IMG/VR virus record: IMGVR_UViG_3300035696_000038
Span: 5,616-69,615 of that record
DNA from: a virus
DNA length: 64,000 nt
Reading direction: 5' to 3' (one strand)
This document shows positions 4,045-53,938 of the stretch, piece by piece. Each line of letters begins with the position of its first letter. Within the stretch, counting starts at the first letter, position 1. The notes beneath the pieces were generated by a model. It saw nothing but the letters and a program-made list of their open reading frames with translations. It did no database searches and was not told the DNA's origin. Both the position numbers and the translations under genes were made by a program.

Positions 4045-4268
4045 CACGACGAGAGGTTTGAGTGCGCCCATCGGGCGCAACTTGGGTTGCTAGGCTTTTG
4101 CTTTGAAAAGATGTTGTCGTGACGAGTTTCGAGTGCATCGCGGAGATGCAACTGTGTGGTATCGCACGTACGCAACTATAAGTGGAAGTCGCAACGGGAT
4201 TCGAGTGCGCCCATCGGGCGCAACACTGAGGCTGAGGCTTTCGAGTTGACCGAAAGCAGCCGCAACGG
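4045..4268 (+). CRISPR. Satellite CRISPR mini-array A (3 divergent 37-bp repeats plus a 5'-half repeat, 3 spacers)
   Basis: Repeats at 4045-4081, 4116-4152 and 4188-4224 end in GAGTGCGCCCATCGGGCGCAAC or GAGTGCATCGCGGAGATGCAAC. Spacers are 34-35 bp. Remnant GCCGCAACGG at 4259. Confidence 0.85.
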
Positions 4269-4323
4269 CTCCCAAACACGCTGTTGGCGGCGTAGCCGTA
4301 GGTGGTTAAGGTAGGGAATCGCG

Positions 4324-5010
4324 ATGGTGATCAAGTCCCCATTCAAGGACTACTACGACTTTGTCGCCCACCAATATGGCGGGGGCGACCCCGCGATTGT
4401 CTACGTCAGAAACCGCCTGGCGCCGATGGAGCAGGACCGCCTTGGCGGCTTGCGGCAAACTTCGCGGGAAGTGACGGTTCCTGGGGATTGCCCGCTACCG
4501 GCGTCGATCTGGTGGCGACCGACAGAAGGCACTAGCGAGATGTTTTTGTCAGCTGTGGGCAGGGGCTATTTGCTGCGCAAAAAGAGCGACTTGAACGACG
4601 ACGATCCGAACACTTACGCCGTGATTGCGCCGGCGGAGATCGATCGCGAAGAGCAGAAACGTGGCTACTACGGGAAAAGGTACCGGAGATTCGAGTTTGG
4701 CAAGGAATCGGCTTTCCTGGTTGAACTGTCGCGGACCATCGGGGCACCCGTTTTTGCCATCCAAAGCATTTTGTATCTTCACCGACCGGATACCTGCGTC
4801 TTGCGCATTCCGGGCCCGTGCCCGGTGCTGCGGGAGATCGGAATGCCAGCGCTGATTTCACCCCGGCAGATGTACCAGGACTTGGCCTACTTTTTGGGCA
4901 ATACCATGAAGCCGCACCCGGACACCGAACCGCCCGTCGAAGTGAGCAACCGGCAAAAAATTGTGAAGGCGGGATTCGACTTGAAACAGTCTTTCCGCCA
5001 CCGGCTATAA
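4324..5010 (+). CDS. Hypothetical phage protein
   Basis: 228 aa ORF (IKSPFKDYYD...KIVKAGFDLKQSFR). Confidence 0.7.
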   Translation: MVIKSPFKDYYDFVAHQYGGGDPAIVYVRNRLAPMEQDRLGGLRQTSREVTVPGDCPLPASIWWRPTEGTSEMFLSAVGRGYLLRKKSDLNDDDPNTYAVIAPAEIDREEQKRGYYGKRYRRFEFGKESAFLVELSRTIGAPVFAIQSILYLHRPDTCVLRIPGPCPVLREIGMPALISPRQMYQDLAYFLGNTMKPHPDTEPPVEVSNRQKIVKAGFDLKQSFRHRL

Positions 5011-5029
5011 TTGCGCGCATGGAGGAACT

Positions 5030-5236
5030 ATGGCCCTGGGACCGGGAAAGTACGATACGCAATGCACGCAGGTTCGCGAAGAAACCCAGGCAACCGGCGT
5101 TTGCTTGCTGGTTTTTGACGGGTGTAAGGGCAGCGGCTTCTCTGTGCAGACCGAAAACCTGTGCTCGCTGGCCATGCTGCCCCAGATTCTGCGCGATGCC
5201 GCCGACCAGATTGAAAGCTCGGGCGGGACGGCTTGA
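5030..5236 (+). CDS. Hypothetical protein
   Basis: TATAAT at 5006 and GGAGG RBS upstream. Confidence 0.65.
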   Translation: MALGPGKYDTQCTQVREETQATGVCLLVFDGCKGSGFSVQTENLCSLAMLPQILRDAADQIESSGGTA

Positions 5237-5277
5237 CGAAGCCCGCAACAGTGTTATACTGCGCGCGGAGATGAGCG

Positions 5278-5967
5278 ATGCGCGATGAACTGACACAAAT
5301 TGCATTGATCCTGGACAGGTCGGGCTCAATGGGCTCGATTGCAGGCGCGACCGTGGAAGGCGTAAACGCCTTTGTGGCCGAACAGCAAAAGGCTCCTGGC
5401 GAGGCGCTGCTTTACTTCGTACAGTTCGATGACGTGTATGAGCGCGTCTACGATGGCAGCATACAGAACGCGCCCCTGCTGACGCTTGCCAAGACCCTGA
5501 ACGTGCGCGAGCACCGCTTCCAGCCGCGCGGATGGACGGCGCTGCTGGACGCCATTGGCACAACCCTCGACGACGTAGGCAAACGCTTGGGCGAGATGCC
5601 GGAAGCCGAACGGCCGGGCAAGGTAGTAGTGGTGATCATGACCGACGGCATGGAGAACAAAAGCAAGAAATTTACCCGTGACCGGATTGCCGAGATGATT
5701 GCCCTGCAGCGCGACGTGTACAAGTGGCAATTCCAATTCCTGGGCGCCAATCAGGACGCGATTCAGGAAGCGGCGAAGTACAACATTCCTGCGGCCAATG
5801 CCGTGAGCTTTGCCAGCACGGCCACCGGCACAGGGAACGTGATACGGGCTATGTCGATCAATTTAACCAACTATCGCGTGAGCGGCCAAGCGCGGGCGAT
5901 GAGCTATAGCCCCGAAGATCGCGCCAAAGCCATGGCCGAGGACCGGCCAGCGCCCGGAAAGCATTAA
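5278..5967 (+). CDS. von Willebrand factor A domain protein
   Basis: MIDAS motifs ILDRSGSM, TALLDAIG and IMTDGMEN; TTGACG-N16-TATACT promoter upstream. Confidence 0.88.
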   Translation: MRDELTQIALILDRSGSMGSIAGATVEGVNAFVAEQQKAPGEALLYFVQFDDVYERVYDGSIQNAPLLTLAKTLNVREHRFQPRGWTALLDAIGTTLDDVGKRLGEMPEAERPGKVVVVIMTDGMENKSKKFTRDRIAEMIALQRDVYKWQFQFLGANQDAIQEAAKYNIPAANAVSFASTATGTGNVIRAMSINLTNYRVSGQARAMSYSPEDRAKAMAEDRPAPGKH

Positions 5968-6058
5968 CGAACCGCCGCACGCCAACTTTTTGAATGGGCC
6001 CTAAGCATAATGCCGCTCGATCTTTTCGGCTCGGGCGGCATGGGTTTTTGGAGGAGCA

Positions 6059-6391
6059 ATGGACCTTTGCGATTTTTGCAGCTCCCCGGCGGTGATAAAA
6101 CGTTTTGAGTGCCGGGACTTTGATAGCGCATCGAAGGACGCGGGCGTGATTTACCCGGAAACCGCGGCCGCTACCGGGCCGACCAACCTGGTATTTGCCA
6201 GCAAGGGCTATTGGGCCGCCTGCGCGCCTTGCGCGGCGCTGGTGGAAGCCGGCGACGTTGAAGGCTTGGTAAAACGCGTGCTCGATGAGTTTGAGCCGCT
6301 GCGGCATCGAGCGGAACTTGAAAGCCACCTGCGCAGAACCTACAAACTGTTCCTCGAAAACCAGATCGTCAAAGAAGAATCTGGCCTTTAA
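6059..6391 (+). CDS. Hypothetical protein with two CxxC pairs
   Basis: GGAGGAG RBS; CDFC...CAPC. Confidence 0.65.
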   Translation: MDLCDFCSSPAVIKRFECRDFDSASKDAGVIYPETAAATGPTNLVFASKGYWAACAPCAALVEAGDVEGLVKRVLDEFEPLRHRAELESHLRRTYKLFLENQIVKEESGL

Positions 6392-6469
6392 CGGCAAGCG
6401 ACCTTTGGCTGCCGCCAGGGGCCCAAAACCGGCGGCTTGAACTTGCTGCCGGACACAGGAAGGCAGGCG

Positions 6470-6865
6470 ATGAAACAACTGCTTCTGGTGGCGCTTTTTG
6501 TTGCTTTGGCGCCGTTGATGCGCGCCCAAAACAAAGGGACCGCCCCGGTGACGATGAGCGGGGCCAAGACCTTCTCTGTTTGGCTTACCTGGATCGCGCC
6601 GGCAAGTTCGCCAGACCCGGTTGCGGGCTACGCCGTCTTCCGGTCCTTGGACGGCACCCAGACTTACCAGCGGCTGAACACGCAGCCGACGACGGCGACG
6701 GCCTACACCGATTGGACACCCCAAACCAGTACGGCGTACGACTACTATGTGGTAAGCGTTGATGCCCAAGGGATAACGAGCGTACCATCGAACGTTGTGG
6801 CAGTGACGATTCCAACGCCGCCCGCAAGCGCCACAAACCTGACGGTGGCTGGAAAGGGAGCTTGA
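6470..6865 (+). CDS. Secreted fibronectin type III-like protein
   Basis: Signal peptide; LTW..P, VAGYAVFRS, YTD, YDYYVVSVD...S.PSN. Confidence 0.8.
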   Translation: MKQLLLVALFVALAPLMRAQNKGTAPVTMSGAKTFSVWLTWIAPASSPDPVAGYAVFRSLDGTQTYQRLNTQPTTATAYTDWTPQTSTAYDYYVVSVDAQGITSVPSNVVAVTIPTPPASATNLTVAGKGA

Positions 6866-7288
6866 ATGAAACCCCTGTTTGTACTACTGACCCTTGTACT
6901 GGCGTCTGTGCTTCCCGGACTGGCGCAGACCAAAGGAACCACAACCGTAACCCTTAGCGGAGCCTCACCGCAGACCGTGGTGGTAAGCTGGGCGGCACCG
7001 GTTGCTTCTGGCAGTTGGGCAGGCTGCACGACCGCCGCGCCCTGCACCTACGTGGTTTCAGTGCTTGCCGGTGCCTGCCCCTCTACCGTGGTTGGCTCCA
7101 GCGGCTGGCTGCAGTTTACGCCGGTGAGCGCGCTGACCCTGACAGACACAACGGAGACGCCCGGCGCAACTGTGTCTTATGTTGTTACGACGGTCCAGAA
7201 CGGTTTTAACGCCGCGCCATCGAATTGCGCGTCTTACACCGTCCCTTTGGACCCAAGCCCTGCCACCGGGCTGACAGTGGGTGGCTAG
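6866..7288 (+). CDS. Secreted FN3-like protein (paralog-like neighbour)
   Basis: Signal peptide; VVSWAAP...SYVVTTV...PSN. Confidence 0.7.
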   Translation: MKPLFVLLTLVLASVLPGLAQTKGTTTVTLSGASPQTVVVSWAAPVASGSWAGCTTAAPCTYVVSVLAGACPSTVVGSSGWLQFTPVSALTLTDTTETPGATVSYVVTTVQNGFNAAPSNCASYTVPLDPSPATGLTVGG

Positions 7289-7327
7289 CCAAGTTGTGGT
7301 GCTGGCTGAAACGGGTGTTTTGAGAAA

Positions 7328-7399
7328 CAGTTTTCAGTTCTTAGTTCGTAGTTCACAGTTGCAAAGGTCGGGGACTAAGAACTGTGAACTACGAACTAG
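7328..7399. repeat. Inverted heptamer tandem repeats (CAGTTNN / NNAACTG)
   Basis: CAGTTTT CAGTTCT TAGTTCG TAGTTCA CAGTT, followed by the mirror ACTAAGA ACTGTGA ACTACGA ACTA. Confidence 0.75.
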
Positions 7400-7416
7400 C
7401 CTTTATAATTGCGCCC

Positions 7417-7926
7417 ATGCCGATCTTGATTGCATACGACGCTTGGTTCGAAGGGCGCATCGAGGCGCTGTTGCGATGGCTGGATAACTGGCTCTCGATC
7501 AGCCAAAAATGGGCCGAACGCGGCATGATCGCGATTTACGTTGTCTTGTATCTTTGCGACGAGACAGAAGCTCTGGCATTGATCGCGTTGCGGCTCTCGA
7601 TAGCCTTCTTTTTGGCAATGATCATGTGGCATTTGCACCGGAGCCCGGCGGCAATGCGCGGACGGCGCAAACGCGTTCCGTTTTATCCTCTTATCCGAGT
7701 CGGCTTTCAATTGCTTATGTGCGGAAGCGGAGCTTTAGCGTCCCAAACGGCGAAAAGCCAGCGAGAAACCATCTCGCTGATGGCGATGCAGATTGTCTAC
7801 ATCGTCTTCTTCTATGCAACAGACATTGCCTTCGATGGCGAAAGCGGCCGTAAACGGAAGCTTGCGTGGGAGAAGATTCATAGTTCTCAGCTCCCGGGCT
7901 TTGCAACTGAGAACTATGAACTGTGA
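7417..7926 (+). CDS. Membrane protein, probably leaderless
   Basis: TATAAT-TGCGCCC-ATG at 7404-7419; four hydrophobic segments. Confidence 0.6.
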   Translation: MPILIAYDAWFEGRIEALLRWLDNWLSISQKWAERGMIAIYVVLYLCDETEALALIALRLSIAFFLAMIMWHLHRSPAAMRGRRKRVPFYPLIRVGFQLLMCGSGALASQTAKSQRETISLMAMQIVYIVFFYATDIAFDGESGRKRKLAWEKIHSSQLPGFATENYEL

Positions 7927-7991
7927 ACTGAAAACTGTTCCAAGGAACTATTTGGCGCAACGTGGATTCCGAAACCGATCGAAGTGCCGCA

Positions 7992-8348: not shown

Positions 8349-8371
8349 CCCGCGGCGTTATAATTGCGCGC

Positions 8372-12464: not shown

Positions 12465-12467
12465 AGA

Positions 12468-17568: not shown

Positions 17569-18026
17569 ATGGGAAAGATCAAAATGCCGTGGAATATGGA
17601 CGAAGACAAGCTGCTCTGCCTGATGGCGCTGAACGACGGCGTGGCCCTGAAACTGAGTTCGCAGGCCGGAAAGCATATTGGCGGGGATTTATTTTGGAGA
17701 ACCGCACCACCCGCGCCGTGCACGCCCTGTTCCGGTTCAAATATAAGAACGGCAACCGGAATTGGTTCAGTATGCAACCCAAGCAGAAGGGCGACCGGGA
17801 AACGACGATGCACGCGCTGCGCTGCAGCCTGGAAGACAATATCAAGCTGGCCATGAAAGTTTTTGGCATTCCACCCGAAGTTGCTGCCCAGGCGATTGAA
17901 TGCTTTTATCCGCCTGACGACGAGGGAGATCCTGGAAAGACCGTTATTTGGCTGGAGCAGCGCAACTTGATTGAAATCCATGTACAACCCGAGGAAGCAG
18001 AAGATGATCGAAAAAGTAACCTATGA
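17569..18026 (+). pseudogene. Frameshifted paralog of 52864-53367 immediately upstream of the Cas12 gene
   Basis: The N-part KLLCLMALND..SSQAGK and the C-part AYWRGFILEN...PPDDEGD..WLEQRNLI lie in different frames, switching at GGAAAGCA (~17668-17675). Both align to the intact paralog. Confidence 0.7.
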
Positions 18027-20295
18027 CGGCGCGACCGTGCGCGTCCACCTGGCTTCGATTTCATTGAAGGCAACCAAGGCGTTTACCCACGGCAGCTTCA
18101 TCTTCGACAAAGAGACGCAGCGGCTGACCATGGGCCAACTGGCTCCGGTGCCCATACCAGCCGAGTTGGAGCTGAGCGAAGGCGCACAGCTCAACTTTCA
18201 ACTGGTGGCGCCCGACGGCGCCCTGCGCAAACAAACCCGCTGTGGCGTGCTCAAAGCAAATGAGAAACAACCATCGATCTTGCGTATCGCCGGCATGGCC
18301 AAGACGGCGCGACGCTACCCCGCCGAAGAAGGCTGGCGCAACGAAATCTATAAATACCGCGCCTGCTTTGCCCACGAGGGTCTGAAGACCGACGCCGTGC
18401 TGGGTGAGCCTCTCAACTTGCCCGAATGGCTCAAGGGTTGCGTTGCGCGGCAAAAAGCGCTGTGGAACCGCCTGGCCTGGCTTTGCCGCGATGCGCGGCG
18501 TAAATGCTCCCCGGCGCCGACCGAGGCGATTGCGGAGCTTGTTAAAGGCACGATTTTGCCCATGATCGATGCCTTCAATTTCAACCTTGGCCGCGCCAGA
18601 GCCAAGGAGAAGATGCGCCACCCGGCCAAGCTGAAAGTGGAGATGCCGGGGCTGGACGGAGTTTGGAGCTTTATTGGAGAACTGCGCCATAGAATCGAAA
18701 AGGGCCAAGCCGTGCCGGAAAAACTGCTTGAAGAGGTGGTGGCCTTTGCCGAACAATACAAGGCCGAGTACACGCCAATCAACGAGTTTCTGAACAACTT
18801 TGCCGCCATTGCCGAGAGAGAAGCTAGGGCGCTGGGGCTGCGGCACTTTGAGGTGCGTCCCACCGTGAGCGCCTTCAAAGCCGTGCTGGACCGGCGCAAG
18901 ACCACCAACGCGCCATGGTCGGAGGGTTGGCCCTTGATCAAGTATCCAGACCGGCCAAAAGCCGCCGATTGGGGTGTTTACTTCTACTTCAACAAGGCGG
19001 GCGTGGACGCGAGCCTGCTGGAGACGGGACCCGGCGTGCCCGGCTTGCGCTTTTCGCCGCCGGTACCGCCCGAAAAGACCGGACACAAAGGCATGACGGG
19101 CGCGGCGGCCAAACGCGCGCTGCGCGAAGCGGAAATTTCAATTACCGGAGACGACGGTGAGAAAGGCGAACGATGGTCGCTGCGCTTTGGCGTCCTTCAG
19201 CATCGTCCGCTGCCGCCAAACTCGCACATCAAGGAATGGAAACTCCTGTTTCAGAACGATGCCCTGTGGCTTTGCCTGGTGGTTGAGCTGCAACGGCCCC
19301 CAGCCACACGTACCCCGCAAACGGCTGGCTTGGATATTGGCTGGCGGCGCACGGAAGACGGCATCCGCTTTGGCACCCTGTATGAATCCGCCACCAAGAC
19401 CGTGCGGGAATTGACGCTCGACCTGACACGATCACCCGGAGACCACAAGAACCGCGTGCCCTTCCGGATCGACTTGGGGCCCGATAGCTGGACGCGTACG
19501 GTTTTTGCTCAACTGGAACGCGGCGAGACCGAGAACCCGCGCCGCGGCCCCTGGGACAGCACCGTGCTTTGGCGTGCCTATAAGGACTGGAAGCCGAAGG
19601 ACGGAATCCCCGGCATTTTGGAGATTCGCACCACGCTACAGGCCCGTAACGACTACCTGAAGGAGACCGCCAAGATTTTGCTGCGCAAGCACCTGGGGGA
19701 CAAGACTCCGGCCTGGCTCGAAAAAGCTGGCCGCAGGGGTTTGTTCAAGATGCAGACAGAGTTTTTGGAAGACGCGCGGGTGCAGGAGATTTTGACCCCA
19801 TGGCGCGAAGAAGACGGCAGGATTGCCCGCTTTCTAGCGGTGTTTGCCGCCAACGCAGCCCGGCGCATTGAATACGGCCAAGCGCAAGTGGCGCACGACA
19901 TCTGCCGGTACCTTGTACAGAAAAACGTGAAGGTGCTGGTGGTTGAAAAGAACTTTCTAAGCAAGCTGGCGCAGCACCACGACAACGAAGACCCAGTGAG
20001 CTTGAAGCGCAGCCAGAAGTACCGCCAGTTTGCGGCGGCGGGAAGATTTGTGACCATCGTGAAGAACACGACTGTAAAGTATGGGATCGTGGTTGACGAG
20101 ATCGATGCAGCCAACACCACACGTATGTGCCACTATTGCGATTTTTTGAACCCGTCGACGGAGAAGGAATGCTACAACTGCGGGGGTTGCGGCCGACAAG
20201 TGAAACAGGATGAAAACTCGGGGATCAATCTGGTGCGGTTTGCGGCAGACCCGGAACTGGCAAAGAAAGCGCAGGAGGGGGGACGCGAAGCCTAG
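18004..20295 (+). CDS. cas12: Type V CRISPR effector (TnpB/Cas12 family, Cas12m/V-U1-like), ~763 aa
   Basis: WED/REC start IYKYRA...KALWNRL; RuvC-I TAGLDIGWRRTEDGIRFG; RuvC-II VLVVEK; Zn finger TTRMCHYC...CGGC; RuvC-III QDENSGINL; abuts cas4. Alternative starts at 17971 and 17980. Confidence 0.85.
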   Translation: MIEKVTYDGATVRVHLASISLKATKAFTHGSFIFDKETQRLTMGQLAPVPIPAELELSEGAQLNFQLVAPDGALRKQTRCGVLKANEKQPSILRIAGMAKTARRYPAEEGWRNEIYKYRACFAHEGLKTDAVLGEPLNLPEWLKGCVARQKALWNRLAWLCRDARRKCSPAPTEAIAELVKGTILPMIDAFNFNLGRARAKEKMRHPAKLKVEMPGLDGVWSFIGELRHRIEKGQAVPEKLLEEVVAFAEQYKAEYTPINEFLNNFAAIAEREARALGLRHFEVRPTVSAFKAVLDRRKTTNAPWSEGWPLIKYPDRPKAADWGVYFYFNKAGVDASLLETGPGVPGLRFSPPVPPEKTGHKGMTGAAAKRALREAEISITGDDGEKGERWSLRFGVLQHRPLPPNSHIKEWKLLFQNDALWLCLVVELQRPPATRTPQTAGLDIGWRRTEDGIRFGTLYESATKTVRELTLDLTRSPGDHKNRVPFRIDLGPDSWTRTVFAQLERGETENPRRGPWDSTVLWRAYKDWKPKDGIPGILEIRTTLQARNDYLKETAKILLRKHLGDKTPAWLEKAGRRGLFKMQTEFLEDARVQEILTPWREEDGRIARFLAVFAANAARRIEYGQAQVAHDICRYLVQKNVKVLVVEKNFLSKLAQHHDNEDPVSLKRSQKYRQFAAAGRFVTIVKNTTVKYGIVVDEIDAANTTRMCHYCDFLNPSTEKECYNCGGCGRQVKQDENSGINLVRFAADPELAKKAQEGGREA

Positions 20296-20931
20296 ATGGA
20301 AGAAGATGATTTTGTCTCAATTTCCGCCTTGCAGCACTACAGCTATTGCCCTCGCCAATGCGGTCTGATCCATGCCGAACAGAGCTTTGCGGAGAATGTC
20401 TACACGGCGAGGGGTAATGCGGTTCATCGTAAAGCCGATTTTAGTGGCTATGAGCTGCGAGTTGGACTCCGCATGGAGCGCGCTCTGCCGTTGGCAAGCC
20501 AAAAATTGGGGCTGATTGGAAGAGCCGATATCGTTGAATTCTCTTCAGACAGATCGGCTTATCCGGTGGAATACAAGCACGGACTGCGCCGACAGCAAAA
20601 CCATGACGACATCCAATTGGCCGCTCAAGCTCTATGCCTGGAGGAAATGACAGGTCTCTCCGTACCGTTTGGTGCAATCTATCACGCGAGCAGCCGCCGT
20701 CGGCGCGAGGTGGAAATCACAGACGCACTTCGCGTGGAAGTTGTCGAAACAACACAAGCAATTCGCGTCATGATCCAGACGGGATGGTTGCCGCCGCCCG
20801 CCAATGACGCGCGTTGTCCCCAATGTTCCCTGATCGGTCTTTGCCAGCCACAGGCGCTCGCGGAGCGTTCGAGACGGAGAACTATGCAAACGAATCTCTT
20901 TATTGTGGAGGATGAATGCGGCCCTTATTGA
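20296..20931 (+). CDS. cas4: CRISPR-associated exonuclease Cas4 (I-C-like)
   Basis: ISALQHYSYCPRQ, GRADIVE, PVEYKHG, QLAAQALCLEEM, CPQCSLIGLC. Confidence 0.96.
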   Translation: MEEDDFVSISALQHYSYCPRQCGLIHAEQSFAENVYTARGNAVHRKADFSGYELRVGLRMERALPLASQKLGLIGRADIVEFSSDRSAYPVEYKHGLRRQQNHDDIQLAAQALCLEEMTGLSVPFGAIYHASSRRRREVEITDALRVEVVETTQAIRVMIQTGWLPPPANDARCPQCSLIGLCQPQALAERSRRRTMQTNLFIVEDECGPY

Positions 20932-21956
20932 ACACGCTCTACATTACACTGCGCGGCTACCTGCACCTCGAAAACGACACACTTCGTTTTGAAGTAGAAC
21001 ACGAAACCAAGTTGCGTGTGCCCTTGCATCACCTTGGATGCGTGGTGTGCTTTGGCGATGTAATGGTTTCGCCGGCAGCTATGGCTCGATTGGCGAAAGA
21101 AGGCAAATCGCTTGTCTTTCTCGATATGAATGGCCGTTTTAAGGCGAGGGTTGAAGGGCCGATCAACGGAAATATCCTGCTGCGCAAGGCGCAGTTCGCC
21201 CGTGCGGATTCGCCAGAGTTTGCCTTGGCGCACGCCAAGGCGTGCATTGCTGGGAAGTTGAGAAACAGCCGTTCCGTTTTGCTGCGCAGCGCCCGCAATG
21301 CAGATGAAAGAGAAGATACCGACAACTTGCGAAAGGCCGCAGCTAGCTTGGTTGTAAACTTGCGCTCCTTGGAGAGCGCACTCACGCTCGATGCTGTGCG
21401 TGGATTGGAAGGTGAATCGGCGAGACGCTATTTTTCTGCGTTTGGTTGCATGATCCGCAAAGACCTGCGCGCGCAATTCGCACCCGACGGACGGAGCCGT
21501 CGACCGCCGCGCGACCGAATGAACGCGCTTCTTTCGTTTCTTTACAGCATGTTGGCTAACGATTGCCGCAGCGCGCTTGAAACCGTCGGGCTCGATCCGC
21601 AACTTGGCTATCTGCACGCCGTGCGGCCCGGACGCGCGTCGCTCGCTCTTGACTTGATGGAGGAGTTTCGGGCAATTTTCGCAGATCGCTTGGCAGTGAC
21701 GCTTGTCAATCGCAAACAGATTCAATACGACGATTTTGAAGAACGGCCAGGAGGAGGAATTGAGTTGCGGGAGGCCGCTCGAAAAACGCTTATTTTCGCC
21801 TTCCAAGAACGCAAGAAGGAGATCGCTTACCACCCATTGTTGGACCAAAAACTAGCTCTTGGCTTGCTTCCACAAATTCAGTCCAGATTTCTCACTCGCG
21901 TAATTCGTGGCGAAGCCGAGCACTACCTGCCCTTTTTGGAGGACCGACCGTGCTGA
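20916..21956 (+). CDS. cas1: CRISPR-associated integrase Cas1 (type I-C-like)
   Basis: [64 protein letters not shown]. Confidence 0.97.
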
Positions 21957-22240
21957 TCTTGGTTTGTTACGACGTGGCAACGGATACGCACGACGGCAGA
22001 AACCGGCTGCGCAGAGTGGCTAAAGCCTGCGAGGCGGTTGGACAACGAGTGCAGCGGTCAGTGTTCGAATGCCGAGTGAATCAGATGGAGCGTGAAGAGT
22101 TGGAACGGAATCTTCTGGAAATCATTGATCCGTTGGAGGATTGCCTACGGTTCTACCGCATCACCGAACCCTCTGGTCAGCACGTCAAAGAATACGGTAC
22201 ATTTACAGCCGTGGATTTTGACGGGGTACTCGTAATTTGA
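21950..22240 (+). CDS. cas2: CRISPR-associated endoribonuclease Cas2
   Basis: MLILVCYDV...[21 protein letters not shown]...DCLRFY. Confidence 0.97.
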
Positions 22241-22425
22241 GGCGTGCTGCGCTAACCCCAAGTGAACATGAAAATGCCGGGGGGTTAGTAGGCACGGTAA
22301 CAGCTTGATTTTATGGAGTATAGGCCGTAGTATGAGTTCATTGCGCCTGTTCGAGCCTGTGGAAAAGTCGAGGTTAGCGCAAAATGCCCCTGGCGCGTTG
22401 ACACGAAAGAGCTTTTGGCGGTGGC
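22241..22425 (+). promoter_or_regulatory. CRISPR leader
   Basis: Non-coding gap between cas2 and the first repeat with inverted GCGCTAACC...GGTTAGCGC boxes, as typically seen in I-C-type leaders. Confidence 0.75.
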
Positions 22426-23461
22426 GGCGCAACGCAGTTCCAGTGCACCCCATGGGTGCAACTTATTGGAGGATTCAAGAATCGCCTGGGCGATGGGGCG
22501 CAACGCAGTTCCAGTGCACCCCATGGGTGCAACCGCCGGCCGCCGCATACAGGCTTCTTTACCGCAAGGCGCAACGCAGTTCCAGTGCACCCCATGGGTG
22601 CAACGTCCTGGTCGTACATCTTCCCGCACTTCTCACACGGCGCAACGCAGTTCCAGTGCACCCCATGGGTGCAACTTCTTTTGGTTCCAGCATCATCCTT
22701 CCCGAGCATCGGCGCAACGCAGTTCCAGTGCACCCCATGGGTGCAACGCTGCGCTGGCGGCGTTGTTCACTGGTGTTGACCGGCGCAACGCAGTTCCAGT
22801 GCACCCCATGGGTGCAACTTTGCAACGCTCGCGACTGCGACCGCGCAGACTCGGCGCAACGCAGTTCCAGTGCACCCCATGGGTGCAACTTTGGCATGCT
22901 GTGGACGCATAGCACTTTAGGGCCGAGGCGCAACGCAGTTCCAGTGCACCCCATGGGTGCAACTTTGTGGAATGCCTCGCTGATCTCGAGCGGAAGATGG
23001 CGCAACGCAGTTTCAGTGCACCCCATGGGTGCAACTGGCGTCCGTTTAGCCACTCTTGAAACTCGGAGGCGCAACGCAGTTTCAGTGCACCCCATGGGTG
23101 CAACCTCTTGCTCGACCGCAACAAGCGCGCCGGCACAAGGCGCAACGCAGTTTCAGTGCACCCCATGGGTGCAACTTATGCTGCGCGCACAGCCACTCGA
23201 TGACGCGCTGGCGCAACGCAGTTTCAGTGCACCCCATGGGTGCAACCGTTAGAAGGTGAATATCGAAAATGGACAAAAACGGCGCAACGCAGTTTGAGTG
23301 CATCCTCTGGATGCAACTTTCGACAGCTTGTTTGCTCTCGCCTTCCCGCCGCGGCGCAACGGGATTTGAGTGCATCCTCTGGATGCAACTGTTGTTCAGA
23401 CCGATCTGATGATGATTGTTTCTGGTCGCAACGCAGTTTGAGTGCACCCCCGGTGGGATCT
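22426..23461 (+). CRISPR. Main CRISPR array: 15 repeats of 37 bp and 14 spacers of 32-37 bp
   Basis: Consensus GGCGCAACGCAGTTCCAGTGCACCCCATGGGTGCAAC. R9-12 carry TTTCAG; R13-14 have stem TGCATCC-TCT-GGATGCA; R15 is degenerate. Confidence 0.98.
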
Positions 23462-45181: not shown

Positions 45182-45218
45182 CTGGAGACGCGGTTTGAGT
45201 GCGCCCGCCGGGCGCAAC
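45182..45218 (+). CRISPR. Solitary CRISPR repeat B
   Basis: CTGGAGACGCGGTTTGAGTGCGCCCGCCGGGCGCAAC has the same 3' hairpin and AAC end as the arrays. Confidence 0.65.
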
Positions 45219-45959: not shown

Positions 45960-46280
45960 GTTGCATCCGGGGGATGCACTCAAACTTTATTGCGGCTATA
46001 CTTTCGCGGTATCAGACCATCCGAAAACAGTTGCACCCAATGGGTGCACTTGAACTTCATTGCGGTAAGACGAGATCGTCGGGCCTGTTCAGCGCCTCGG
46101 GGTTGCACTCGGCAGGTGCACTTGAACCTCATTGCGGCAGAGACGACTGCGCTTTGCGACATTCCAGAGCACGTTGCACCCATCAGGTGCACTGAAACTT
46201 CATTGCGACTAACGCAGACCAAAGGGGCTGTTTTGTCCGACTCGTTGCACCCATCAGGTGCACTGAAACATGCTTAGCCG
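45960..46280 (-). CRISPR. Satellite CRISPR array C (5 repeats, 4 internal spacers)
   Basis: Reverse-complement repeats at 45960, 46030, 46102, 46173 and 46244, e.g. GTCGCAATGAAGTTTCAGTGCACCTGATGGGTGCAAC; spacers 33-35 bp. Confidence 0.92.
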
Positions 46281-48303: not shown

Positions 48304-48546
48304 GTTGCATCCGGTGGATGCACTGGAACTGCGTTGCGGGGGTCAATGAGGCGTTTTATTCCGGAGGTATCAAAAGTTGCATCCAGAGGATGCACTGGAA
48401 CCTTATCCCGCCAACATGTCGAGAGAAATCCAAAGTTGCACCCGATGGGTGCATTAAAACATTACCGCGAGGGACACCGCCATTGACAAGACGCCATGGC
48501 ATCTCGAAAGTTGCACCCGGTGGGTGCACTCGAACCCGCTCGCCGT
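48304..48546 (-). CRISPR. Satellite CRISPR array D (4 divergent repeats)
   Basis: Reverse-complement repeats at 48304, 48376, 48435 and 48510, e.g. CCCGCAACGCAGTTCCAGTGCATCCACCGGATGCAAC; spacers of 35, 22 and 38 bp. Confidence 0.88.
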
Positions 48547-49996: not shown

Positions 49997-50199
49997 GCGA
50001 GAAGGTGACACTGGTGATGGATATTCGCGGTCTGCGGCGGGAAGCCGGAGTCACCATCGAACAAGCGGCGGCGATGACCGAAGTTCCCAAGGCAACACTG
50101 ATGCGCATCGAGACCGGAGCCGCGCCAGCGCTGGAGAACGCGCTGAGGATTGCGCGCTTTATGCGGACACCGGTGGAAGAGATTTGGAGGCTTGAATGA
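49993..50199 (+). CDS. XRE-family HTH regulator
   Basis: LRREAGVTIEQAAAMTEVPKATLMRIETG..P.LENALRIA. Confidence 0.85.
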   Translation: MSEKVTLVMDIRGLRREAGVTIEQAAAMTEVPKATLMRIETGAAPALENALRIARFMRTPVEEIWRLE

Positions 50200-50597
50200 C
50201 TAACGAGCTTAAATGCGACCTATGCGGCGACGGTGGAACGATTTATTTGCATGCGCGGTGCCACGGCGTGGAGCCGCCCTGGGTCTGCTTGACCGGCGAT
50301 GTGCTGACCCTGGAATGCTCGGTTTGCAAGCGGCTGGTGAGCCGGTTCAGGCTGGCGCAAGAAGGAACGGACCCAGCCGCCGCGCGGCTGGAACAAGCCC
50401 TGCAAATTGCCCGGCACGCCTTGAGCGAACAGCACGACGCCATCGATCAATTGTTTGCCCGGCTGACAGTGGCGGACGAAAACTTTTCTCCATCGCGCAC
50501 CGGACAGCCCTGGCGGGCGCTGCTGGAGGGCAACGAAGCCATGAAGGCGATTGAGGCCACCATGCTACGAGCGGACAACCAGGGAGAACCGCAATGA
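50196..50597 (+). CDS. Hypothetical protein
   Basis: ATGA coupling; Cys/His cluster. Confidence 0.65.
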   Translation: MTNELKCDLCGDGGTIYLHARCHGVEPPWVCLTGDVLTLECSVCKRLVSRFRLAQEGTDPAAARLEQALQIARHALSEQHDAIDQLFARLTVADENFSPSRTGQPWRALLEGNEAMKAIEATMLRADNQGEPQ

Positions 50598-50977
50598 GGG
50601 TCATCATTGCCGGCAGCCGCAATATTGGCGATATGTGGGCGCTGGAGGCGGCCATTCGCCAGGCAGACTTTGAAATTACCGAGGTGGTTTCAGGCCGGGC
50701 CGCGGGCGTGGACACGTTGGGCGAGATATGGGCCGACCTGAACGGAATACCGAAAAAGCTGTTTGCGCCCGACAGGAAGAAACACGGCTGGCCTAAAGCC
50801 GCCTTTGTGCGAAACGCGCAGATGGCCGACTATGCCGATGCCTTGATTGCCGTGTGGGACGGCGAAAGCCACGGCACGAAACACATGATCGAGTGTGCCA
50901 GGAAGAAAGGCTTGAAGGTGCACGTGTTTTTGCTTGACCCAATCAGGTACCGCCCCTGTGACCGAGGCAACTCGTGA
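50594..50977 (+). CDS. SLOG-family (YspA/DUF2493-like) nucleotide-binding protein
   Basis: VIIAGSR, VVSGRAAGVDTLGE.WA, RNAQMADYADALIAVWDGESHGTKHMI. Confidence 0.88.
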   Translation: MRVIIAGSRNIGDMWALEAAIRQADFEITEVVSGRAAGVDTLGEIWADLNGIPKKLFAPDRKKHGWPKAAFVRNAQMADYADALIAVWDGESHGTKHMIECARKKGLKVHVFLLDPIRYRPCDRGNS

Positions 50978-51348
50978 CCAAAAAACATGAACTCATGGAA
51001 GAACTTGACTTTATGCTCTTGGGCTTGGTAAGCGCGGAAAGGATGCAATTATCGAGACAACAGGCGATTATCCGGCGCATTGTCGGGCGTTTAGTGGAGC
51101 AACTGGCCGAACTTGAGACAAACAAAAATGAAGATCGCTGCGATATCTGACACCCATGGGCTGGCCTTTGACCGGCCCCCCGGCAGACAGAATGCTTCCG
51201 CCGCTGGTGTTTGAGATTACCTAACTGGCTCAATGCGCGCAGATTAAACTAGACTTGCGCCTTGGGCTCGGTTATCTTGCTCAAGAATGCCTGCCGGGCA
51301 GTTGAGGGACGGCAGGAGCTAGAACCCCACGAGGAGGGGGAAACGGAA

Positions 51349-51756
51349 ATGAAGGCCGCAAATAAAAAAGCGAAGCTGAAGTGCCCGGAGTGCCACCGCG
51401 GCGACTTTGAAAACCTGCGCAATTTGGGCGTGCATCGGAAGTTCCAGCATGGGGTGCCGGGACAATCTGCCGCGTCGGTTTACAAGCGGAAGCACGAGCA
51501 GAACGAAAAGCTGGCCGAGGACCCGAACCATGACCAGGACCGGGCCCGCGAGCCCCAGGAGCCGCAGGGGGCCGTCGAAGCTCTGCCGTCGATAGCGGCG
51601 GCGCAAGCCGCGGCCACTATTACTCCAGTGCTGGTGGGCTACGCCGTGGCCAAGTTGGAACACCTGGCCGAGACCATTGCGCGCGCCCAAGCAGTGCCTG
51701 AAAGGGAATTTGTAAAACTGGTGGCCCGGCAGCTGGTGGCCTTGAGAGACCGGTAG
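51349..51756 (+). CDS. C2H2 Zn-finger-containing hypothetical protein
   Basis: CPECH...F..L..LGVHRKFQH; TAGACT-N17-TATCTT promoter at ~51250. Confidence 0.65.
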   Translation: MKAANKKAKLKCPECHRGDFENLRNLGVHRKFQHGVPGQSAASVYKRKHEQNEKLAEDPNHDQDRAREPQEPQGAVEALPSIAAAQAAATITPVLVGYAVAKLEHLAETIARAQAVPEREFVKLVARQLVALRDR

Positions 51757-51876
51757 AACAATGGCAGACGAGCTGGCTGCGAGGCGGCGCGTGACAATGT
51801 CGCAGTGGGTGATCTATGACCACCCACGCGACCACCCCCAAAAGGAACATAGCCAACCAGAGAAAGACGCGAACGA

Positions 51877-52302
51877 ATGACGGCGGAATGGAAAGAGACC
51901 CTGCTAACTCTTGCTGACATCTTCGCCAGCCTGTTGCTGGTCGCTTACGGGATGATGATCGGTCATCAATCCCGCCACAGCATGTGGTTTGGGGCTTTGT
52001 TGTGCTCAGCGATTGCGAGCTTTCTTATCGCCTCGACCGCAGTGCGAAACCACGCTGCGCGTAAGTTGATTGAGGTGTCGAAACAACTGATCCTGATGCA
52101 GAAGAGACTGATCGGCGATGCCGACATCCTGAACCTGCGGGAGCGGAACGCCAAGCTTACTGACGTTGCATTGTCCGCAGTGGCGCTGATGGTGACCATT
52201 GAACATGGAATGACGCCCGACCTGCACGCCCTGAAACGGGATTTGGCGGCTGCGGGCCAACTGCGCGCTGAAGACAAGCCGAACAGCGCCGCAAAACCTT
52301 GA
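51877..52302 (+). CDS. Membrane protein
   Basis: Two N-terminal TM segments. Confidence 0.55.
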   Translation: MTAEWKETLLTLADIFASLLLVAYGMMIGHQSRHSMWFGALLCSAIASFLIASTAVRNHAARKLIEVSKQLILMQKRLIGDADILNLRERNAKLTDVALSAVALMVTIEHGMTPDLHALKRDLAAAGQLRAEDKPNSAAKP

Positions 52303-52336
52303 CCGCCGATCGCTGCGATAGGAGAAAGAGCCCGCC

Positions 52337-52867
52337 ATGCCCTATGACCTGACACCCGTGAACCGCGAAGCCGGTGCCTTTCGCTTTGGCGCCTTCAGCT
52401 TTGTTGTATTGCTCGAAGCCTGCGGGTACCTGTTTACCTGTGTTCATGGGCCAGCGCAATGGTTTTGTGTGTGGGAAGCCGATGAACGGATGAACGGAGC
52501 GCACCCCGACGGCTCAAAAGACCCTTACCCTGCGATCTTGGGCGGCGGTTTTGACGTGAGCGACGAAGAAGCGCGCATCATGGCGCGCATGGCGCGAAAC
52601 TTTGCGGCGGTGCAGCGCAAGCTGCCAGAAGAAAACCGTGCGCAGGATCTGCGCTCAAAACCGAGATTCGACCGTGCCGACGTTCTGCACCTGCTGACCA
52701 AGGCAATGGCGGGTGGCCAGGCGGGTCCCTGGCCGACGAAGGTACGCGACGACTTTACCGCCAGGATCGAGCGGTTTGCCGAATGGGCGCCGCGCTCGGG
52801 CGGCTTCCACGTCAACTTCAGTTTGACCGTGCGCTTTACAAACGCCCAAGAAAAGGATGAAGCATGA
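52337..52867 (+). CDS. Hypothetical protein
   Basis: AGGAG RBS; 176 aa. Confidence 0.7.
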   Translation: MPYDLTPVNREAGAFRFGAFSFVVLLEACGYLFTCVHGPAQWFCVWEADERMNGAHPDGSKDPYPAILGGGFDVSDEEARIMARMARNFAAVQRKLPEENRAQDLRSKPRFDRADVLHLLTKAMAGGQAGPWPTKVRDDFTARIERFAEWAPRSGGFHVNFSLTVRFTNAQEKDEA

Positions 52868-53367
52868 CCGACAAAATAACCGCCCCGCTGGCCGACCCAG
52901 ACTTGGACTGCGTGGGCTTTAACCTGGACACGCAAAAACTGCTGTGTCTGATGGTCTTGGACGACGAGCTGGCCGCGCTGCTCAGCGACCAGGCCGGAGA
53001 GGCTTTTTGGCGCGCGTTTATTGTGGAAGATCGTGTTACTGGCGAGATCCACGCGCGGCAACGCTTCCGCTACGTTGACCACGATTCGTGGTCGCACCTG
53101 AACCTGAACGCCGAGCGGCAAAAGAAAAGCCGTGAGGAGCGCGTGGACTATCTGCGGGGAGGGCTTGAGTTTGTGCTGCGCGGGGCTTTTGCCATGCTGA
53201 CCAAGGGTGCACCGGCACCTAAGGATATGGTGGTCAACTTCTTTCCGCCAGACGACCAGGGCGACGGCAACAATACACTCAAGTGGCTGATCGAGAAGGA
53301 CCTGATTTACGTGCGCGGGGTGGAGAAAGCAGAAGGCGAACCGGCAGAGGGAGATGTTTTGATGTGA
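52864..53367 (+). CDS. Hypothetical protein; intact paralog of the gene upstream of cas12
   Basis: KLLCLMVLDD, FWRAFIVED, FFPPDDQGD..LKWLIEKDLI; the stop lies within the first repeat of array E. Confidence 0.8.
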   Translation: MTDKITAPLADPDLDCVGFNLDTQKLLCLMVLDDELAALLSDQAGEAFWRAFIVEDRVTGEIHARQRFRYVDHDSWSHLNLNAERQKKSREERVDYLRGGLEFVLRGAFAMLTKGAPAPKDMVVNFFPPDDQGDGNNTLKWLIEKDLIYVRGVEKAEGEPAEGDVLM

Positions 53368-53938
53368 CGCGAGTGCATCCCACGGATGCAACTGTCCAGG
53401 CGGTATGCTTGGGGGACGCCAACTGGGCGCGGCGTGATTCGAGTGCACCCCTTGGGTGCAACATACTGATGGGAACCGCGCTTGACTTCTTTGGTCGGGT
53501 CGTCACGTGGTTTGAGTGCATCCCACGGATGCAACTACGTCGAACGTCCCGATCAGCATCGCGCTGAATGGGCGCAACGCAGTTCAAGTGCACCCCTTGG
53601 GTGCAACAATCGGCCCTGTTTGATCGCCGCGTGGAGAGTGCGCGGCGCAATGCAGTTTCAGTGCACCCCATGGGTGCAACACTCATCGGTCCTATCTCCT
53701 CGGTTTTGTTGATCGGCGCAACGCAGTTCAAGTGCACTTTCTCGGTGCAACCTTAAACTCGTAGGTCAACGTCTCTGTATTGCCGTGGCGCAACGCAGTT
53801 TCAGTGCACCCCACGGGTGCAACGTATTCGCTGTTTTCAAGAATGCGGTGAGTGATCTCCCGCAACGCAGTTCGAGTGCATCCCCAGGATGCAACCGCGT
53901 AGGCCAAAAAGATCGTTGGCGCGCTTTGCCGTAACGCG
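53356..53938 (+). CRISPR. Satellite CRISPR array E (8 repeats plus a 5'-half remnant)
   Basis: Repeats end at 53392, 53462, 53535, 53607, 53680, 53751, 53823 and 53895; spacers 33-36 bp; remnant GCCGTAACGCG at ~53928. Confidence 0.95.

What the first reader, a model, noticed from the sequence alone, without database searches (positions are those of the whole stretch)
4045..53938. One type V effector served by six repeat loci: a leadered array plus five leaderless satellites scattered over 50 kb
Seen: besides the main array (22426-23461), the same repeat family occurs at 4045-4268 (+), 45182-45218 (+, solitary), 45960-46280 (-), 48304-48546 (-) and 53356-53938 (+), about 36 repeats in all. Every satellite is co-oriented with an upstream gene. 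Arrays C and E overlap that gene's stop codon, A starts 16 bp after it, and D and B follow short heptamer-repeat tracts. None has a leader. First repeats keep only the 3' ~22 nt, and arrays A and E end in a 5'-half remnant, i.e. exactly the units needed for a 3'-handle+spacer crRNA. Inference: these are fixed guide cassettes wired into the 3' ends of different phage transcripts, so different guide sets could be expressed at different stages (timed targeting of competitors, or Cas12m-style repression of host genes), while the main array acquires new spacers.
Basis: partly seen in the sequence, partly recalled or inferred. Interest (0 to 1): 0.92.

Follow-up and report, generated by a model that had tools for sequence, protein, structure and literature searches.

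The report
Phage CRISPR with scattered guide arrays
A soil-bacterium virus carries its own CRISPR protein, one normal guide array and five small extra arrays tucked behind unrelated genes, a layout its relatives share and that probably lets ordinary viral messages also deliver guide RNAs.

Summary
The window has 35 intact repeat units plus one degenerate unit. They form one array with a leader (22426-23461) beside a cas12-like gene and cas4-cas1-cas2, and five leaderless sets (A 3, B 1, C 5, D 4, E 8 units).

The satellite units keep the 3' hairpin and the GCAAC tail. Their 5' halves and loops have drifted, and stem changes are compensated. Each set follows a co-oriented gene; C and E start 10 and 5 nt after a stop codon.

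Six related IMG/VR virus records and one metagenome contig show the same multi-array layout, partly at syntenic sites. Syntenic arrays share no spacers, so the satellites turn over and are not strictly fixed.

At genus level, main-array spacers match Terracidiphilus genomes: a TonB-dependent receptor gene, a MacB-like ABC transporter and a rival cas12-like gene. Satellite spacer E04 matches (32/36, TTTT flank) an excisionase-like gene next to an integrase.

The effector folds most like Cas12m but is larger and has adaptation genes.

My reading is working guide arrays read through from neighbouring operons (about 0.6). Transcription, processing and stage-specific timing are untested.

Earlier AI notes of this scan report the same layout on other phages of this clade. 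I found no paper describing it.

The parts
18004..20295 (+). cas12-like effector (763 aa from the ATG; 774 aa from the TTG at 17971)
   Evidence: Pfam Cas12f1-like TNB domain, E 6.7e-9. AlphaFold model pLDDT 84; best PDB folds are Cas12m2 8hhl (E 5e-19, TM 0.55) and Cas12m 8pm4. RuvC residues D455/E659/D747.
20296..22240 (+). cas4 (20296-20931), cas1 of type I-C kind (20916-21956), cas2 (21950-22240)
   Evidence: Pfam and NCBIfam hits; cas1 scores 466 bits against TIGR03640 cas1_DVULG, above its cut-off of 385.
22241..22425 (+). leader of the main array, with a conserved motif at 22358-22375
   Evidence: The motif is shared 17/18 with the leader of relative G002, the only other record with cas1. 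There is no other copy in the record.
22426..23461 (+). main array: 14 intact repeats plus a degenerate terminal repeat (23425-23461)
   Evidence: There are 4 distinct repeat variants, graded from the leader end. Spacers M02, M03, M10 and M12 have protospacers in Terracidiphilus genomes.
4045..4268 (+). satellite A: 3 units, then a possible 10-nt remnant of a repeat's 5' half
   Evidence: It lies between the small ORF 3798-4028 (+) and gene 4324-5010 (+).
45182..45218 (+). satellite B: a solitary unit after a CAGTTNN heptamer tract (45069-45130)
   Evidence: CM E 3e-8. The sequence after it runs into the 3' end of the convergent gene 45249-45809 (-).
45960..46280 (-). satellite C: 5 units
   Evidence: The first hairpin lies 10 nt after the stop of gene 46274-46663 (-). 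A promoter-like site for the next gene lies at 45876-45848.
48304..48546 (-). satellite D: 4 units after a heptamer tract (48570-48610)
   Evidence: The upstream gene 48613-49215 (-) is a resolvase/invertase. Promoter-like sites lie at 48577-48548 (just before the array) and 48297-48268 (just after it).
53356..53938 (+). satellite E: 8 units
   Evidence: The first hairpin lies 5 nt after the stop of gene 52864-53367. A promoter-like site at 53916-53945 precedes ssb (54007-54408). Spacer E04 (53608-53643) matches 32/36, with a TTTT flank, an excisionase-like gene next to an integrase in a Terracidiphilus genome.
52864..53367 (+). gene X, which carries array E at its 3' end; a paralogue lies at 17694-18026 just before cas12
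   Evidence: 31% paralogy. A 66%-identical homologue on a separate metagenome contig is again followed at once by an array of at least 6 units. No family was found.

Best explanation
WHAT IT IS. The record is a fragment of a temperate phage, or phage-like integrative element, of Terracidiphilus (Acidobacteriaceae). It carries its own type V CRISPR system with a large Cas12m-like effector.

HOW THE GUIDE STORE IS SPLIT.
- One array next to cas4-cas1-cas2 has a leader and takes up new spacers.
- Five leaderless mini-arrays sit at the 3' ends of other transcription units.

PROPOSED MECHANISM. The satellites are transcribed by read-through from the gene in front of them. The effector recognises the conserved 3' hairpin of each repeat (about 26 nt, GTTYNA + stem-loop + GCAAC), cuts the transcript, and keeps hairpin plus about 34 nt as a guide. 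The 5' half of the repeat is then needed only for spacer uptake, which explains why it has decayed in the satellites.

WHAT THE GUIDES AIM AT. They are directed at host chromosomal genes and at rival mobile elements. For a prophage this fits binding and silencing better than cutting.

SHOWN: the anatomy, the selection pattern, the conservation across the clade, and protospacers for four main spacers and one satellite spacer.

INFERRED: transcription, processing, loading, and silencing rather than cleavage.
For: 1. UNIT COUNT. There are 35 clean units and no half-decayed ones in the window.

2. POSITION-SPECIFIC CONSTRAINT in the 21 satellite units against the main repeat:
- positions 1-11 differ at 29% in inner units and 69% in first units;
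- the loop differs at 44-48%;
- the stems differ at 8-10%;
- the GCAAC tail differs at 0%;
- 125 of 126 stem cells pair, and 11 of 12 changed stem cells still pair.

3. COVARIATION across 150 distinct repeats from six records:
- pair 24-30, which my search motif did not constrain, is CG 103, UA 39, UG 4, unpaired 4;
- pair 23-31 is UA 94, CG 54;
- 0 of 500 shuffles reach the observed score.

4. SPACER LENGTHS are the same in satellites and main arrays: median 34-35, mostly 32-38.

5. GENE CONTEXT. In 24 of 24 arrays with an upstream gene call, across six records, that gene is co-oriented. Many first hairpins lie 0-33 nt after its stop.

6. PROMOTERS. Promoter-like sites for the next genes lie after C, D and E, not before C or E.

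7. CLADE-WIDE LAYOUT. All six related virus records examined hold several arrays (G001-G005 and G411; G411 is 99.985% identical to G001). So does one metagenome contig. Arrays recur near the homologues of ssb, 51262-51756, 55384-55929 and 4324-5236.

8. REPEAT HOMOGENEITY. Only the arrays next to cas1 are homogeneous: identity of 5' halves is 0.93 and 1.00, against 0.35-0.87 for all others. Hairpins stay intact throughout.

9. TARGETS.
- Satellite spacer E04 has a 32/36 protospacer with a TTTT 5' flank.
- Main spacers M02 (32/34) and M12 (31/34) have TTT/TTTT flanks.

10. EFFECTOR. It is closest in fold to Cas12m, whose members process their own pre-crRNA within the repeat (passages read in PMC11013384).
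Against: - There is no expression or processing data of any kind.
- Only 1 of 16 true satellite spacers has a convincing protospacer, with 4 mismatches, in 1 of 376 genomes. E01 (28/33) is not significant.
- A, C and D gave nothing in the few genomes I could still search.
- My units were first found with a hairpin motif, so hairpin conservation is partly built into the sample. The filter-free covariance search and the regular spacing reduce this worry but do not remove it.
- Gene calls are my own crude ones.
- A promoter-like site lies just upstream of D, so D may not depend on read-through.
- The simple terminator scan also flags several repeat hairpins followed by T-rich spacers. They could stop part of the transcription inside arrays.
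Confidence: 0.6

Rival explanations
1. The satellites are mainly cis-acting RNA elements, not guide sources. The effector, or a host RNase, binds or cuts the repeat hairpins inside polycistronic messages. This sets the stability or translation of the flanking genes (ssb, cas12 and others), or the hairpins soak up Cas12 proteins of the same family made by the host or by rivals (an RNA anti-CRISPR or decoy role). This is most plausible for the solitary units.
For: - Solitary hairpins lie 23 nt before the cas12 start in relative G003 and at the cas12 start in MAG contig L001.
- The 15 nt after unit A03 are identical to the 15 nt after a solitary unit in G001, where they form a Shine-Dalgarno region and start codon.
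- Terminal units of D and E are followed directly by promoter-like sites.
- Single repeat units acting as RNA anti-CRISPRs are known (abstract of PMC10651486 in the listing; passages of PMC11656645).
Against: - Hairpins alone would not need unique spacers of constant length (median 34-35) between them.
- E04 has a real protospacer with the same T-rich flank as main spacers.
- No satellite spacer has a partial match within the record that could serve self-regulation: 2 seed hits of at least 16/20 against 2.0 expected.
Confidence: 0.17
2. The satellites are inert leftovers. They are pieces of the main array, or of a duplicated CRISPR locus, moved around by recombination. They are carried along and slowly decay.
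For: - Gene X before array E has a paralogue just before cas12. In relative G004 an X homologue sits before an array that precedes cas12, so E could be a copy of 'X-array'.
- Units E05 and E07 differ by one base from the older main-array repeat variant, and D03 has the same hairpin as M13/M14.
- The 5' halves are decayed, and most spacers have no target found.
Against: - Neutral decay would hit stems as hard as 5' halves and loops. It does not: 8-10% against 29-69% and 44-48%, with compensated changes.
- There are no half-decayed units anywhere.
- The multi-array layout persists across relatives whose proteins are only 30-70% identical, at partly the same sites but with new spacers. That pattern speaks for maintenance and renewal rather than decay.
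Confidence: 0.12
3. The repeats at module borders serve chiefly as homology patches for recombination between co-infecting relatives (module shuffling). Any guide RNAs are a by-product.
For: - Arrays lie at junctions between gene blocks.
- Repeat variants are mixed within single arrays, for example alternating stem types in E. This is what exchange between arrays would give.
Against: - Recombination needs sequence identity, not a base-paired stem, so it does not explain compensated stem changes or the invariant GCAAC tail.
- No test of recombination breakpoints was made.
Confidence: 0.04

Closest known systems
Type V-M CRISPR-Cas (Cas12m; PDB 8hhl, 8hio, 8pm4)
   Same: - Best structural match of the effector.
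- The only PDB sequence hits above noise are Cas12m and TnpB.
- The first RuvC residue varies in the family: D 18, E 8, H 1 of 27. Passages of PMC11013384 describe similar variation for Cas12m.
- The repeat has a 3' hairpin.
- The system is carried by a mobile element.
- Spacers against chromosomal genes fit silencing by binding.
   Different: - The effector has about 763 aa rather than about 600, with 13-15% identity over the fold match.
- It is joined to cas4-cas1-cas2. The V-U and V-M systems described in the passages I read lack these.
- It has several dispersed arrays.
- Whether it cuts DNA is unknown.
Viral CRISPR mini-arrays and single repeat units (reviewed in PMC11656645; Racr in PMC10651486)
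   Same: Short arrays or single repeats sit inside virus genomes, away from any cas operon, and are thought to act in conflicts between mobile elements.
   Different: - The described cases copy the host's repeats and borrow or block the host's Cas proteins, with one or two spacers (passages).
- Here the repeats belong to the element's own effector.
- The arrays reach 8 units in this record and 22 in relatives.
- They sit at gene 3' ends.
Compact phage-encoded arrays of huge phages (CasPhi/Cas12j and others; PMC7162821)
   Same: The CRISPR system is phage-borne, with a roughly 750-aa type V effector and compact arrays (median six repeats). Most systems lack adaptation genes. Spacers are aimed at competing phages and host genes (passages).
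   Different: - The effector is of another family.
- The passages I read do not describe leaderless arrays spread through other operons.
- I did not read the supplements, which are closed.
Engineered single-transcript-unit Cas12a designs
   Same: Guide arrays are placed on a protein-coding transcript and cut out by the Cas12 enzyme itself. I know this from titles and abstracts in the listing, for example PMC11672738.
   Different: Those are man-made constructs for Cas12a. Here it would be a natural arrangement, and it is unproven.
Regulatory repeat-like cr-RNAs and mini-arrays in cas loci (PMC10120712)
   Same: Stand-alone repeats or mini-arrays lie outside the main array and have degenerate repeats.
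   Different: Those carry spacers that partly match cas promoters (passages). No such self-match exists here.

Membership tests
CRISPR array (each of the six loci) | Direct repeats of one family separated by unique spacers of near-constant length | tested here: met
   Units are spaced 69-75 nt apart (one of 59) and spacers are 32-38 nt (one of 22). B is a single unit and is therefore not an array in the strict sense.
CRISPR array (each of the six loci) | Leader with promoter and integration signals next to the first repeat | tested here: not met
   Met for the main array only (motif shared with G002). The satellites have no leader copy, and C and E have only 10 and 5 nt between the stop codon and the first hairpin.
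Type V (Cas12) system | Single large effector with a split RuvC domain and a TNB zinc finger, next to an array | tested here: met
   Pfam TNB; Cas12/TnpB folds fill the PDB hit list; D/E/D and CxxC..CxxC columns are conserved; the gene lies 2.1 kb upstream of the main array.
Subtype V-M (Cas12m) | Closest sequence and structure relatives are Cas12m | tested here: met
   The match is distant: phmmer E 5e-8 over the C-terminus only, and TM 0.55 normalised to the target.
Subtype V-M (Cas12m) | Compact effector of about 600 aa without adaptation genes | tested here: not met
   763 aa, with cas4-cas1-cas2 directly downstream. The family definition comes from passages of PMC11013384.
Subtype V-M (Cas12m) | Binds but does not cut target DNA | not testable with these tools
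   Indirect hint only: main spacers match host chromosomal genes.
Subtype V-M (Cas12m) | crRNA only, no tracrRNA | tested here: inconclusive
   The covariance search on both strands found no anti-repeat in the window apart from echoes of the palindromic stems. A short or diverged anti-repeat could be missed.
Viral mini-array that exploits host Cas | Repeats match the host's own CRISPR arrays, and no cognate effector is on the virus | tested here: not met
   A cognate effector and main array are on the same record. Some Terracidiphilus genomes do hold arrays of this repeat family (G543, G706). Those may themselves be prophages.
RNA anti-CRISPR (solitary repeat unit) | A single repeat without a functional spacer that blocks a Cas protein | tested here: inconclusive
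   Only B fits the form.
Self-regulatory cr-like RNA | The spacer partly matches the element's own cas promoter or another own site | tested here: not met
   2 seed hits of at least 16/20 against 2.0 in shuffles, none near cas12. No hit of 17 nt or longer within the record.

The most novel reading that the evidence does not exclude
By wiring guide arrays into the 3' ends of different operons, the phage ties each set of guides to a different transcription programme (prophage-expressed, early replication, the minus-strand block with the resolvase). A non-cutting Cas12m-like protein would then silence different host and rival genes at different stages. The same cuts at repeat hairpins would also trim the neighbouring messages (ssb, cas12), giving a CRISPR-based gene-control circuit built into a phage genome.
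Probability: 0.2. Interest if true: 0.88.

Novelty: new variant of a known kind. Interest (0 to 1): 0.7.

Why it matters
If the satellites work as read, this is a natural case of guide RNAs delivered on ordinary messenger RNAs. It separates the part of a CRISPR repeat needed to make a guide from the part needed to acquire spacers.

The record also shows a temperate phage aiming its own CRISPR at host genes: an outer-membrane receptor and a transporter. It aims as well at a rival's cas12-like gene and at an integrative element. That points to CRISPR used for host take-over and for exclusion of competitors rather than for defence.

The compact hairpin handle (about 26 nt) and the roughly 763-aa effector may also interest tool builders.

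Tried and rejected
RNA EVIDENCE. A look-up of public RNA runs for 44900-54100 listed no RNA holder (none was listed).

All gene calls are my own crude codon-usage calls.

SPACER TARGETS THAT GAVE NOTHING
- All 217 spacer-like stretches of six records against those six records. Only 11 non-self hits came back: nine of 15-16 nt and two pairs of duplicated neighbouring spacers.
- GenBank phages and PLSDB plasmids by blastn, with the main array and with 45960-53938: no spacer hit, only three short gene-level matches.
- Exact 26-mers of M03, E05 and C02 in IMG/VR: none.
- Arrays C, D and A against five chosen Terracidiphilus genomes: one marginal hit (E 0.007), otherwise none.

FAMILY-LEVEL SEARCHES. 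In 401 Acidobacteriaceae genomes the tallies were 19 (main), 18 (E) and 14 (C) genomes at per-genome E <= 0.01, with the best at 2e-4. I first read all of these as noise. The genus-level search later showed that the main-array hits at M02 and M10 were weak copies of real targets. A cluster of 8 weak hits at M11 did not reappear at genus level and stays unresolved.

E04 AND E01. A second apparent E04 hit (G695) spans the spacer-repeat border and is not a protospacer. E01 (28/33) is not significant once the 376 genomes are counted.

CLOSE RELATIVES. None was found for testing spacer stability.
- The nearest effector is 65% identical.
- G411 and G001 are the same element (9 differences in 58,705 bases).
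- The metagenome scan with gene X gave one contig.

GENE X. No Pfam family, and only low-score leads in the protein atlas.

RNA FOLDS. Folds of arrays E and C show many of the local hairpins, with modest z-scores of -1.9 and -2.6. I draw nothing more from them.

LITERATURE. Searches found no description of leaderless arrays embedded in other operons of a phage with its own effector. The Cell 2022 paper on virus-encoded CRISPR systems is not in the searchable library, and supplements are closed, so this is not proof of absence.

UNPUBLISHED GENOMES. G278 and G257 appeared among marginal hits.

Full report
WHAT IS THERE

The window is bases 5616-69615 of a 69,615-base IMG/VR virus record.

A 763-aa protein is encoded at 18004-20295.
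- It has a Cas12f1-like TNB domain.
- It is followed without a gap by cas4, a type I-C-like cas1 and cas2.
- Then come a 185-nt leader and an array of 14 repeats plus a degenerate 15th.

The 37-nt repeat ends in a 7-bp stem, a 3-nt loop and the tail AC.

The hairpin motif occurs 36 times in the window against 3.0 expected.
- 35 of these form the main array and five further sets: A (3 units, +), B (1, +), C (5, -), D (4, -) and E (8, +).
- A covariance model built from 150 repeats of this phage clade, run without filters, finds the same 35 units (28-50 bits). It then finds the degenerate unit (18 bits) and nothing else but antisense echoes of the stems.
- So the satellites are made of clean units, and the window holds no half-decayed copies.

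SELECTION ON THE UNITS

I compared the 21 satellite units with the main repeat.
- Positions 1-11 differ at 29% in inner units and 69% in the five first units, which is about random.
- Positions 12-17 differ at 21-33%.
- The loop differs at 44-48%.
- The two stem halves differ at only 8-10%, and the GCAAC tail at 0%.
- 125 of 126 stem cells pair, and 11 of 12 changed stem cells remain paired.

I then looked at 150 of the 169 distinct repeats found among 217 units in six records.
- Pair 24-30, which my search motif left free, is CG in 103, UA in 39, UG in 4 and unpaired in 4.
- Pair 23-31 is UA in 94 and CG in 54.
- No shuffle of 500 reaches the observed covariation score, and slid registers fall to 18-46% paired.

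One caveat applies. Units were first collected with a hairpin motif, so some conservation is built in. The filter-free model search and the unbroken spacing in this window argue that few units were missed.

The conserved part is about 26 nt: GTTYNA, the stem-loop and the tail. This is the part a Cas12-type enzyme keeps as the guide's handle. The decayed part is what only spacer integration would need.

CONTEXT

All gene calls here are my own rough ones.
- Every array follows a co-oriented gene: 6 of 6 here and 24 of 24 across six records.
- The first hairpin lies 5 nt (E), 10 nt (C) and 33 nt (A) after the stop codon.
- B and D follow CAGTTNN heptamer tracts.
- Promoter-like sites for the next genes lie just after C, D and E. 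One also lies just before D.
- The main leader has no second copy in the record. Its motif GTGGAAAAGTCGAGGTTAGCG recurs (17/18) only in the leader of relative G002, the only relative with cas1.
- The '5'-half remnants' after A and E are 9/14 matches, which random places give 11% of the time.

RELATIVES

The effector belongs to a family of about 110 clusters of 725-790 aa. Where sources name them, they are called zinc-ribbon proteins of Terracidiphilus or Acidobacteriaceae MAGs.

Six IMG/VR records encode relatives at 54-61% identity.
- Two of these records are the same element.
- Every one holds several arrays of the same repeat family: 2 to 5 real arrays each, of 1 to 24 units. I set aside two single motif hits with broken stems as chance.
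- One relative is rated 99% complete at 133 kb. It has a large terminase and no cas1.
- Two relatives are classed as proviruses.
- In this window I found an integrase, a primase-helicase, ERF, exonucleases, SSB and methylases, but no structural genes. It looks like the early or replication part of a temperate phage.

Arrays recur at partly the same places:
- upstream of ssb or after the 51262-51756 homologue (this record's E; G002; G003; G005);
- after the 55384-55929 homologue (G001, G002, G003; not here);
- before the 4324-5236 homologues (A here; G002; G003).

On a separate metagenome contig, a 66%-identical copy of gene X (52864-53367) is again followed at once by at least 6 units.

Arrays next to cas4-cas1-cas2 are homogeneous: identity of 5' halves is 0.93 here and 1.00 in G002. 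All other arrays are heterogeneous (0.35-0.87) with intact hairpins.

NOT FIXED

Spacers of syntenic arrays are unrelated.
- In-register similarity of E to the array behind the 66%-identical gene X is 0.28-0.43.
- The background mean is 0.33 and the 99th percentile 0.47.
- No spacer is shared between records.

Inherited, unchanging cassettes next to a gene at 66% protein identity should still be recognisable. So the satellites have been refilled over time. This could happen by exchange with other arrays: E05 and E07 are one base from an older main-array repeat variant, and D03 has the hairpin of M13/M14. It could also happen by uptake that I cannot see. Spacer lengths are the same in all arrays.

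TARGETS

Searches in GenBank phages, plasmids and IMG/VR (exact words) found nothing. A sample of 401 Acidobacteriaceae genomes gave only weak hits.

That search gave clear matches for the main array in 38 of 381 genomes at E <= 0.001:
- 22 genomes matched M02;
- 11 matched M10;
- 2 matched M03;
- 1 matched M12;
- 2 were array look-alikes.

The best alignments and their targets are as follows.
- M02 matches 32/34 inside a TonB-dependent receptor gene beside mutS.
- M10 matches 32/34 in a MacB-like ABC transporter.
- M03 matches 32/34 inside the TNB region of a cas12-like gene only about 31% identical to this one, in two MAGs.
- M12 matches 31/34 in an unknown small gene.

Array E gave 5 of 376 genomes.
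- E04 matches 32/36 in an HTH_17 (excisionase-like) gene about 0.7 kb from a tyrosine integrase.
- E01 (28/33) is not significant.
- Two hits are array look-alikes.
- One hit crosses a spacer-repeat border.

The 5' flanks are TTT (M02), TTTT (M12) and TTTT (E04), but TCTC (M03) and GGAC (M10). The numbers are too few to fix a PAM, but the satellite spacer shares the T-rich flank.

A prophage that carries spacers against host chromosomal genes is easier to understand if the effector silences rather than cuts. That is how Cas12m works (passages of PMC11013384; PMC11656645).

EFFECTOR

The AlphaFold model has pLDDT 84.
- It matches Cas12m2 best (8hhl, E 5e-19, TM 0.55 by target), then Cas12m 8pm4, then Cas12f and TnpB.
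- By sequence, only the C-terminus matches.
- In 27 family members the first RuvC residue is D in 18, E in 8 and H in 1. The other two catalytic residues are kept in 26 of 27.
- The protein fails two defining features of V-M as described: its size, and the absence of adaptation genes.
- It is best called a large Cas12m-like relative, not a member.

READING

The most likely account is that the satellites are working guide arrays without uptake function. They would be transcribed with the genes in front of them and processed at the conserved hairpin. The main array would do the learning. I put this at about 0.6.

The rival readings are cis-acting processing or decoy elements (0.17, strongest for the solitary units), inert relics (0.12) and recombination patches (0.04). 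The idea of stage-specific guide sets remains open (about 0.2).

No RNA data could be had (see Tried and rejected).

PRIOR NOTES AND LITERATURE

Earlier AI notes of this scan describe the same layout on other phages of this clade. They are not independent evidence.

In the papers I could search and the passages I read, I found viral mini-arrays that borrow host Cas, solitary repeat decoys, regulatory mini-arrays and compact phage arrays. I did not find leaderless arrays of a phage's own system embedded in its other operons.

Noticed in passing
window 22534-22567 (M02), 23105-23138 (M10); loci L048/L055, L047: Two main-array spacers match host chromosomal genes of Terracidiphilus. M02 matches a TonB-dependent receptor gene next to mutS (22 of 381 genomes, best 32/34). 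M10 matches a MacB-like ABC transporter (11 of 381, best 32/34). A receptor gene as target would suit exclusion of other phages.
   Followed up: partly
window 22605-22638 (M03); loci L045, L046: Spacer M03 matches (32/34) the zinc-finger region of a cas12-like gene that is only about 31% identical to this element's own. It occurs in two Terracidiphilus MAGs. This looks like one CRISPR system aimed at a rival's effector gene.
   Followed up: partly
window 23638-23820 (-): A roughly 58-aa protein (KLTKADPEFYSKIA...GGRPKK) is 71-84% identical in all five relatives. That is more conserved than the effector. It always lies antisense just after the effector-side array, behind a conserved inverted repeat GTCTAC...GTAGAC. 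The third-base pattern shows it is coding, not a tracrRNA.
   Followed up: partly
window 7374-48621 (for example 12464-12552, 39701-39784, 42482-42543, 45069-45138, 48570-48621): Heptamer tandem tracts (AACTGNN, or CAGTTNN on the other strand) occur at about ten gene junctions. Some form inverted pairs able to make long hairpins. Several lie directly before TATAAT-N7-ATG cassettes that look like leaderless genes (families D5, D8, D11, D12, D14).
   Followed up: no
window 52864-53367 and 17694-18026; L044 2147-2620; G004 27220-27654: Gene X of unknown family has a paralogue just before cas12. Its homologues elsewhere also sit just before arrays. It could be an accessory gene, or a trace of a locus duplication.
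   Followed up: partly
G003 10278-10297 (L022), L001 9985-10003: A single repeat hairpin lies directly in front of the cas12 start codon in two relatives. This could allow the effector to act on its own message. This window has none there.
   Followed up: no
window 4225-4239; G001 about 50540-50554: The 15 nt after unit A03 (ACTGAGGCTGAGGCT) are identical to the 15 nt after a solitary unit in relative G001. There they are a ribosome-binding region followed by ATG.
   Followed up: partly
window 45249-49215: A minus-strand gene block in an otherwise plus-strand region holds arrays C and D. It ends with a small serine recombinase of the resolvase/invertase kind. I did not test whether it is an invertible segment.
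   Followed up: no
record bases 1-9300 (window up to about 3733): The left end carries glycosyltransferase and acyltransferase genes and few homologues in the relatives. It may be host flank of a provirus or cargo.
   Followed up: no
main array and array D: Spacers often begin with TT: 7 of 13 in the main array, 3 of 3 in D, 30 of 187 across all records, with T at 36-37% of spacer positions 1-3. This may reflect slipped uptake next to a T-rich PAM. It also makes several repeat hairpins look like terminators.
   Followed up: partly
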